Of a DNA stretch of 64,000 nt, positions 53,136 through 53,771 are shown piece by piece. This DNA is from Octopus vulgaris. Taxonomy: Eukaryota. Position numbers and translations under genes: made by a program. Under the pieces are notes generated by a model. That model was not told the DNA's origin. It saw only the letters and a list, made by a program, of their open reading frames with translations, and did not search any database. The DNA is taken from assembly GCA_951406725.2 (NCBI GenBank), contig OX597832.1:1736001-1800000 (forward strand). The letters are read 5' to 3'. Every line of letters starts with the position of its first letter. Position 1 is the stretch's first letter.

Positions 53136-53311
53136 TATATATATATATATATATATATATCAGTAAAAACAATTAAGATTCAAGTGAATTCCAATGAATT
53201 CAAATGAATGCGGTACTTAACTTAGATGCACCAGAAATCTTTATGGTATTAACCATAAAATAATGTGGGGTGATTATAAACAGGAAAAAAGCAACAAGAA
53301 TGGATTAGTTG

Positions 53312-53400
53312 TTCAGTACAATTGTTTCATACGAAGAACAGATTTATTTAAAGCTGCAAATATTGCAGCAAATACAAGTGTCCCGTATTCATCAGCCAAA
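53312..53400 (-). ncRNA. Hammerhead ribozyme motif
   Basis: Reverse complement of 53615-53703. Confidence 0.75.
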
Positions 53401-53614
53401 ACACATATGAGTTTTCCATACACCTGCATTATTATGGATGGATTTACCTTTTCTGAGAAGCTAACAATCTTTTTAAAAACCTTTTATAAAACTGTGCATC
53501 ATTAGAAAATATTTTAAGTCTGCTTACAACCTAACTTTGCTTTTCATAGAACTCTCTTCGATACTTCATGAGTGTAGCCTCACTCCCTAGGATGTTTGGA
53601 AAACTCATATGTGT

Positions 53615-53703
53615 TTTGGCTGATGAATACGGGACACTTGTATTTGCTGCAATATTTGCAGCTTTAAATAAATCTGTTCTTCGTATGAAACAATTGTACT
53701 GAA
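53615..53703 (+). ncRNA. Hammerhead ribozyme motif
   Basis: tttgg-CTGATGA-atacg...cgtat-GAAAC-AATT-GTA-ctgaa; palindromic ACAATTGT. Confidence 0.75.
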
Positions 53704-53734
53704 CAACTAATCCATTATTGTTGCTTTTTTCCTG

Positions 53735-53771
<37 letters not shown>

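What the first reader, a model, noticed from the sequence alone, without database searches (positions are those of the whole stretch)
53161..53735. 575-bp miniature of the same architecture: two inverted hammerheads between (TA)n tracts
Seen: 139-bp arms with one visible mismatch and a 178-bp spacer. Each arm is mostly the ribozyme (CTGATGA, long stem II atacg..cgtat, GAAAC-AATT-GTA). The left end extends about 120 bp beyond the arm. The sequence is unrelated to the 30414 element but has the same polarity and asymmetry. Inference: a common integration mechanism builds these inverted double-ribozyme cassettes.
Basis: partly seen in the sequence, partly recalled or inferred. Interest (0 to 1): 0.7.

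Follow-up and report, generated by a model that had tools for sequence, protein, structure and literature searches.

The report
Back-to-back Penelope retrotransposon stumps
This 575-base fold-back is two cut-short ends of a common protein-coding Penelope-type jumping gene joined back to back in a TA repeat, each with a hammerhead-ribozyme motif; the join differs at every insertion, and the two outer ends fall at two different fixed sites, likely because one enzyme complex starts copying the same RNA from two places.

Summary
It is not a miniature mobile cassette. It is two 5'-truncated 3' ends of a ~4.2-kb Penelope-like retrotransposon (RT plus C-terminal GIY-YIG, with the motifs of the Hydra clade), joined head to head. 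The hammerhead core has 267 exact copies in the genome. Inversion junctions vary (57 distinct in 58 insertions). The outer ends are fixed at two sites, A (+37 to +42 after the predicted cut) and B (about +150 to +165, adding the tail). All 58 inverted copies have one A and one B end; so do 15 of 15 in the 30414 family (a second Hydra-type family) and 7 of 8 in sister subfamilies. The hammerhead stems covary across subfamilies, and the palindromic loop III suggests a dimer. The two motifs lie on opposite strands, so they cannot cut out a circle. Inverted copies, one-sided tails and opposite-strand hammerhead pairs are published for Penelope elements, and this scan noted the same pattern on other DNA. 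The long tail and strict A/B coupling are modest additions.

The parts
53135..53160 (.). (TA)n target tract, left
   Evidence: sequence
53161..53279 (-). 119-bp 'tail' (+38 to +156 after the predicted cut); ends at fixed site B; in a near-full-length copy it runs on into the 5' leader and the ORF (ATG at about +213)
53280..53418 (-). left arm: element positions +37 to -101, truncated at its 5' end
53312..53400 (-). type I hammerhead motif, left copy; predicted cut after 53317
53418..53419 (.). inversion junction (element -101 joined to -279), not shared by any other sampled locus; no exact microhomology against the reference copy
53419..53596 (+). spacer = 3' UTR of the element (-279 to -102), copied on this side only
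53597..53735 (+). right arm: -101 to +37; ends at fixed site A, no tail
53615..53703 (+). type I hammerhead motif: stem I 53615-19/53699-703, CTGATGA 53620-26, 60-nt stem II, GAAA, 2-bp stem III with palindromic AATT loop, predicted cut after 53698
53739..53769 (.). (TA)n target tract, right (3 extra nt ATG before it)
   Evidence: sequence

Best explanation
The stretch is two 5'-truncated 3' ends of a ~4.2-kb RT/GIY-YIG Penelope-like retrotransposon of Hydra type, joined head to head inside a (TA)n tract, likely made in a single insertion event. Shown: the parent ORF, the variable inner junction, two fixed outer ends (A and B, about 120 nt apart, each at a TTATA in the element), one of each per inverted copy, and arms that share subfamily variants. 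Inferred: the endonuclease nicks both strands of (TA)n; the two 3' ends, probably helped by pairing with UUAUA in the RNA, prime reverse transcription at A and at B of the same RNA or RNP; both cDNAs stop early and their inner ends are joined by repair. If the B cDNA runs past A, the hammerhead is copied twice (this locus); if it stops near A, only an inverted tail is left. The hammerhead is a conserved part of the parent's pseudo-LTR and likely cuts as a dimer; here it is a passenger.
For: Copies extend upstream of the spacer into a 3' UTR and an ORF with RT and GIY-YIG remains. L064 is a near-full tandem with a period of 4216 nt. An intact sister ORF of 957 aa is 85% identical over 291 residues and shows RWK, DKT, CxCx5C, CxxC/CxH and no CCHH, the Hydra features listed in PMC8557442 section 11. 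Ends: of 120 mapped, 60 at +37..42, 55 at +145..165, 5 others. 58 of 58 inverted copies are A+B, none A+A or B+B (about 7e-18 for 57 independent loci if ends were independent); 15 of 15 in the 30414 family; 7 of 8 in sister subfamilies. (TA)4 at both ends in 56 of 58. Arms of one locus differ at 19 of 338 subfamily-diagnostic sites against 33% between loci. In 12 of 58 the B piece starts at +11 or later, that is, tail only. A Poseidon protein cuts and extends both strands and starts at two internal RNA sites that bracket the tail (PMC11167929, parts 1-2 of 4 read).
Against: One sister-subfamily copy (L155) is A+A. One locus (C27) has arms discordant at 7 of 20 diagnostic sites, i.e. two templates. 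Arm likeness also follows from one master gene active at a time or from gene conversion, so 'one RNA molecule' is not proven. In vitro, Poseidon showed no start-site difference between strands and no homology to the cut DNA. Pfam hits are below gathering (RVT_1 E=0.002, GIY-YIG E=0.005-0.007), and the intact 957-aa ORF gave none at E<0.8. No tree against reference Hydra proteins was made. About 40% of sampled elements are not inverted. Cleavage and expression are untested.
Confidence: 0.88

Rival explanations
1. A fixed, non-autonomous fold-back unit (MITE-like or retrozyme-like double-ribozyme cassette) that moves as a whole.
For: A few copies are of similar size (L002, L003); both outer ends are fixed.
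Against: 57 distinct junctions in 58; the one repeat is a local tandem duplication. The closest copy L002 has junction -47/-322, not -105/-280. The tail may sit on the longer or the shorter piece. The hammerheads are on opposite strands. Long copies run into the ORF.
Confidence: 0.03
2. Same parent element, but the inversion arises by self-priming (fold-back) of the first cDNA or of an antisense template, as proposed for Adineta Penelopes, not by two target-primed starts.
For: PMC3846280 proposes self-priming from palindromes at junctions (passages read). Three junctions here are near-symmetrical (-98/-98, -89/-89, -50/-48) and some carry templated extra bases; 7 of 15 clean joins overlap by 2 nt or more against 18% expected (p=0.01).
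Against: Simple fold-back makes the second arm a copy of the first and cannot add a tail that the first lacks, nor give tail-only pieces beside kilobase-long A pieces. A B-first fold-back would have to stop at A, a fixed site, every time. Most junctions are strongly asymmetrical.
Confidence: 0.2
3. Two separate RNAs, held together by a protein dimer or by the hammerhead loop-III duplex, each template one arm.
For: Loop III is palindromic (predicted duplex -6.4 kcal/mol); the C27 locus has two templates; it explains how the overlap is copied twice without strand displacement.
Against: Two equivalent RNAs give no reason for the strict A+B asymmetry; 37 of 38 pairs have at most 2 diagnostic differences.
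Confidence: 0.25

Closest known systems
Hydra clade of C-terminal EN+ Penelope-like elements (PMC8557442; section 11, passages and supplement part 2 read), including Hydra-1_Obim of Octopus bimaculoides
   Same: RWK, DKT, CxCx5C linker, CxxC and CxH around E and N, no CCHH, (TA)n target, canonical hammerhead in the pseudo-LTR; an inverted 5'-truncated copy is noted there for Penelope-13_HM.
   Different: Unit 4.2-4.6 kb with Asn-rich linkers and a 3' UTR of about 1.3 kb, against 'generally <3 kb' (database relatives are about 700 aa); 60-nt stem II; the hammerhead differs from the one listed for Hydra-1_oBim, so a different family.
Insertion units of EN+ PLEs with inverted 5'-truncated copy and tail (PMC8557442 Fig. 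2 legend; PMC3846280 passages)
   Same: [quoted passage not shown]
   Different: Tail about 120 nt here and about 180 nt in the 30414 family, against 30-40 bp; the one-end rule is counted here (58/58, 15/15, 7/8).
Minimal hammerheads of metazoan PLEs (PMC4209133; parts 1-2 of 4 read)
   Same: Type I, short stem I, long stem II, palindromic loop III; that paper already reports dual motifs about 100-700 bp apart on opposite strands, tied to truncated PLEs.
   Different: This subfamily has A10.1-U11.1, not the usual G-C (sisters have G-U or G-C); no extra base between 9 and 10.1.
Poseidon of Anolis in vitro (PMC11167929)
   Same: Two internal RT start sites bracket the tail; AT-rich target; both strands cut and extended.
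   Different: Here both sites lie before the ATG and both sit at TTATA, which could pair with the (TA)n primer; the genomic ends are anti-correlated between strands.
L1 twin priming (recalled, not read here)
   Same: Both target strands prime on one RNA, giving an inversion with a variable junction.
   Different: The second start is a fixed site, and the region upstream of it is usually copied twice.

Membership tests
EN+ Penelope-like element | Single ORF with RT and GIY-YIG endonuclease | tested here: met
   In the parent copies, not in the window stretch: FDI..YY, MGS, YRDD and VIY..YLG motifs; Pfam RVT_1 E=0.002 and GIY-YIG E=0.005, both below gathering
EN+ Penelope-like element | Partial tandems forming pseudo-LTRs that hold the hammerhead | tested here: met
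   L064 period 4216 nt; C3_34358800, L144, L145, L153
EN+ Penelope-like element | Inverted 5'-truncated copy and a tail at one end | tested here: met
   58 of 58 inverted copies A+B; tail longer than published
Hydra clade | RWK motif and DKT in place of DKG | tested here: met
   RRIRWKT and PADKTG in L064 and P0001
Hydra clade | C-terminal EN with CxCX5C linker, CxxC and CxH around E/N, no CCHH | tested here: met
   CNCRIKSKC; CQLC..E..N..CIH/CVH; only one Cys inside VIYKCT..YLG
Hydra clade | Insertion into (TA)n | tested here: met
   56 of 58 inverted copies with TA at both ends
Hydra clade | Placement in the RT phylogeny | not tested
   No named reference Hydra proteins in hand; database relatives are unnamed
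Type I (minimal, dimeric) hammerhead ribozyme | CUGANGA, GAAA and NUH core | tested here: met
   Invariant in 18 of 18 distinct sequences except position 7 (U/G)
Type I (minimal, dimeric) hammerhead ribozyme | Stems I and II kept by compensatory change | tested here: met
   95% of cells paired, 5 pairs changed on both sides, 0/500 shuffles, slid controls 35-55%; RNAalifold finds both stems unaided; sequences are related and the structure was drawn from them
Type I (minimal, dimeric) hammerhead ribozyme | Palindromic loop III allowing a dimer | tested here: met
   AAUU here, GAUU (wobble-compatible) in one sister group, AGCU in the 30414 family; 2 of 18 have AACU, which breaks it
Type I (minimal, dimeric) hammerhead ribozyme | Self-cleavage | not testable with these tools
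   The monomer fold is 6.9 kcal/mol above the MFE; needs an assay
Non-LTR retrozyme / circular ribozyme RNA | Same-strand tandem hammerheads flanking a monomer | tested here: not met
   One sense motif per strand
MITE-like fixed fold-back unit | Constant length and internal structure among copies | tested here: not met
   57 distinct junctions of 58

The most novel reading that the evidence does not exclude
Penelope-like elements insert by fixed-site twin priming: one dimeric RNP primes the two strands of (TA)n at two set sites of one RNA, guided by UUAUA pairing and a conserved structured tail of about 120 nt, the outer RT displacing the inner cDNA. This would explain inverted pseudo-LTRs and one-sided tails as one event, and these young Hydra-type families with intact ORFs make it directly testable.
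Probability: 0.5. Interest if true: 0.55.

Novelty: new member of a known kind. Interest (0 to 1): 0.3.

Why it matters
The locus itself is an ordinary dead insertion. Its family is useful because how Penelope elements make inverted repeats and tails is still called an open task (PMC8557442). The counted rule of one A end and one B end per insertion, with both arms from one source, restricts the models, and intact sister ORFs exist for an in vitro test.

Tried and rejected
Rfam scans of the window and of the element found no hammerhead family; the long stem II probably defeats the models. First guess 'Neptune clade' (recalled) was dropped after reading the clade diagnostics. Truncation at the ribozyme cut as in vivo proof of cleavage: 3 of 58 B pieces start at -1/0, but two are ambiguous through microhomology and one runs past the site; inconclusive. 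Junction microhomology: 35 of 50 joins could not be scored because of extra bases or divergence from the reference; weak result on 15. No correlation of A and B piece lengths (rho -0.13, p=0.35); tail-only B with longer A is only a trend (p=0.07). Expression: no RNA holder listed; 24 runs, all contigs; 4 laid, none of the listed pieces spans the junction, so neither an assembly check nor expression evidence. Tail structure: three hairpins predicted, only 2 of 20 pairs with a two-sided change. A paper on Penelope endonuclease activity (id recalled) was not held. Literature searches for a counted A/B rule or twin priming in PLEs (listings only) gave nothing beyond PMC8557442 and PMC11167929; subscription papers are not covered, and the supplements of the bioRxiv retrozyme preprint (passages read) and of PMC11167929 were not seen.

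Full report
Observation. The sequence matches the description: arms 53280-53418 and 53597-53735 (139 bp, one mismatch), spacer 178 bp, left extension 119 bp, (TA)n on both sides. Each arm carries a type I hammerhead motif pointing outwards. Rfam does not report it. A 27-mer from the motif has 267 exact matches in G000 and the reversed control none.

Parent element. In other copies the sequence upstream of the spacer continues for about 1.3 kb and reaches the end of an ORF. [quoted passage not shown] L064 is a broken but near-complete copy with two direct pseudo-LTRs 4216 nt apart; after the upstream one the 'tail' runs on into the leader and the ATG, about 213 nt after the predicted cut. A protein search of G000 scored 150 of 18,495 candidates, many with long open frames; 20 were fetched. 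One gives an intact 957-aa ORF, 85% identical to L064 over 291 residues. Its RWK, DKT, CxCx5C, CxxC/CxH motifs, lack of CCHH and (TA)n target are those given for the Hydra clade in PMC8557442, whose supplement lists an octopus member with a different hammerhead. Pfam support is weak and no tree was made. That the host is an octopus is inferred (a 70% hit to an Octopus sinensis protein; earlier notes).

Fixed or variable. I pooled 30 best DNA hits with all 100 listed exact hits (C1-C6 and one on C7, of 267) into 99 segments. Outer ends fall at two sites: of 120 mapped in the first 83 loci, 60 at +37..42 (A), 55 at +145..165 (B), 5 elsewhere, one of these being the run-on into the ORF. Both sites are at TTATA in the element and are followed by (TA)n. 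Of 58 inverted copies all are A+B; 46 ends are unpaired (25 A, 21 B; four belong to two direct tandems); 2 fragments were unclassified. In the less biased C1-C6 set, 48 are inverted and 34 ends unpaired. Inner junctions range from +110 to -4050, with 57 distinct pairs in 58. The window copy is B(-101) joined to A(-279). So the structure forms at each insertion.

The 30414 element. It is 425+391-bp arms of a second family whose long copies encode an RT/GIY-YIG ORF with RWR, DKT and CNCRNKNKC, 49% identical to the sister ORF. Its ends lie at about +163-170 and +337/348 (tail about 180 nt); 15 of 15 copies with both ends in hand are A+B, while 11 stretches showed one end only. In the sister subfamilies 7 of 8 classifiable copies are A+B and L155 is A+A.

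Ribozyme. Within the family variation is mostly scattered. Across 18 distinct sequences from related subfamilies the core is invariant but for position 7, and stems I and II show compensatory and wobble changes. Stem III is 2 bp with a palindromic loop, as in dimeric metazoan motifs (PMC4209133); 2 of 18 break the palindrome. The monomer fold is 6.9 kcal/mol above the minimum; a transcript of this locus from either strand has one sense motif whose core is fully paired with the other arm. Activity is untested, and nearly all cDNAs pass through the cut site, so their templates were uncut or religated.

Mechanism. Arms of one locus differ at 19 of 338 diagnostic sites (7 from one locus) against 33% between loci (38 of 47 pairs had enough overlap). 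With the A+B rule and the 12 tail-only pieces this fits two target-primed starts, at A and at B, on one template, joined inside by repair. PMC11167929 shows both-strand extension and two internal starts in vitro, though with no strand difference. Rivals are fold-back self-priming (PMC3846280) and two RNAs in one complex; the data do not exclude them.

Verdict. Identity as a truncated inverted Hydra-type Penelope insertion: about 0.9. One-RNA twin priming: about 0.5. The architecture is in print, and earlier notes of this scan report it in other families of this genome (no look-alike by sequence). Interest 0.3.

Noticed in passing
window 30414-33990: Second Hydra-type Penelope family: hammerhead with AGCT loop III, A/B ends about 180 nt apart, 15 of 15 inverted copies A+B.
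   Followed up: yes
window about 51500-53129, - strand: Broken LINE fragment (KAPGPD, RGISHLS motifs; RTE-like by recall) directly left of the TA tract.
   Followed up: partly
L144 1577-4450; L145, L146, L147: Sister subfamily with intact ORFs of about 957 aa, apparently young; Asn-rich linkers between RT and EN, as described for Adineta Penelopes.
   Followed up: partly
L155 560-6983: Inverted copy with two A ends, the only exception to the A+B rule seen.
   Followed up: yes
L025/L029 (G000:C27:38552761-38553925): Inverted copy whose arms come from two subfamilies (7 of 20 diagnostic sites differ).
   Followed up: partly
L147 1743-9901: Two near-full-length units joined head to head, the second running on past its tail into the ORF.
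   Followed up: no
L149 +7681, L152 -3008, L160 -1258: Further unrelated hammerhead motifs; the first two have palindromic loop III (ACGT, ATAT).
   Followed up: no
L167/L168 from about 6400; L033 8190-9533: An endonuclease/RT LINE inserted inside a copy of the 30414 family; an integrase-like ORF near another copy. Observed only.
   Followed up: no
element +38 to +156 (window 53161-53279): The tail is well conserved across subfamilies and folds into three predicted hairpins, with little covariation.
   Followed up: partly
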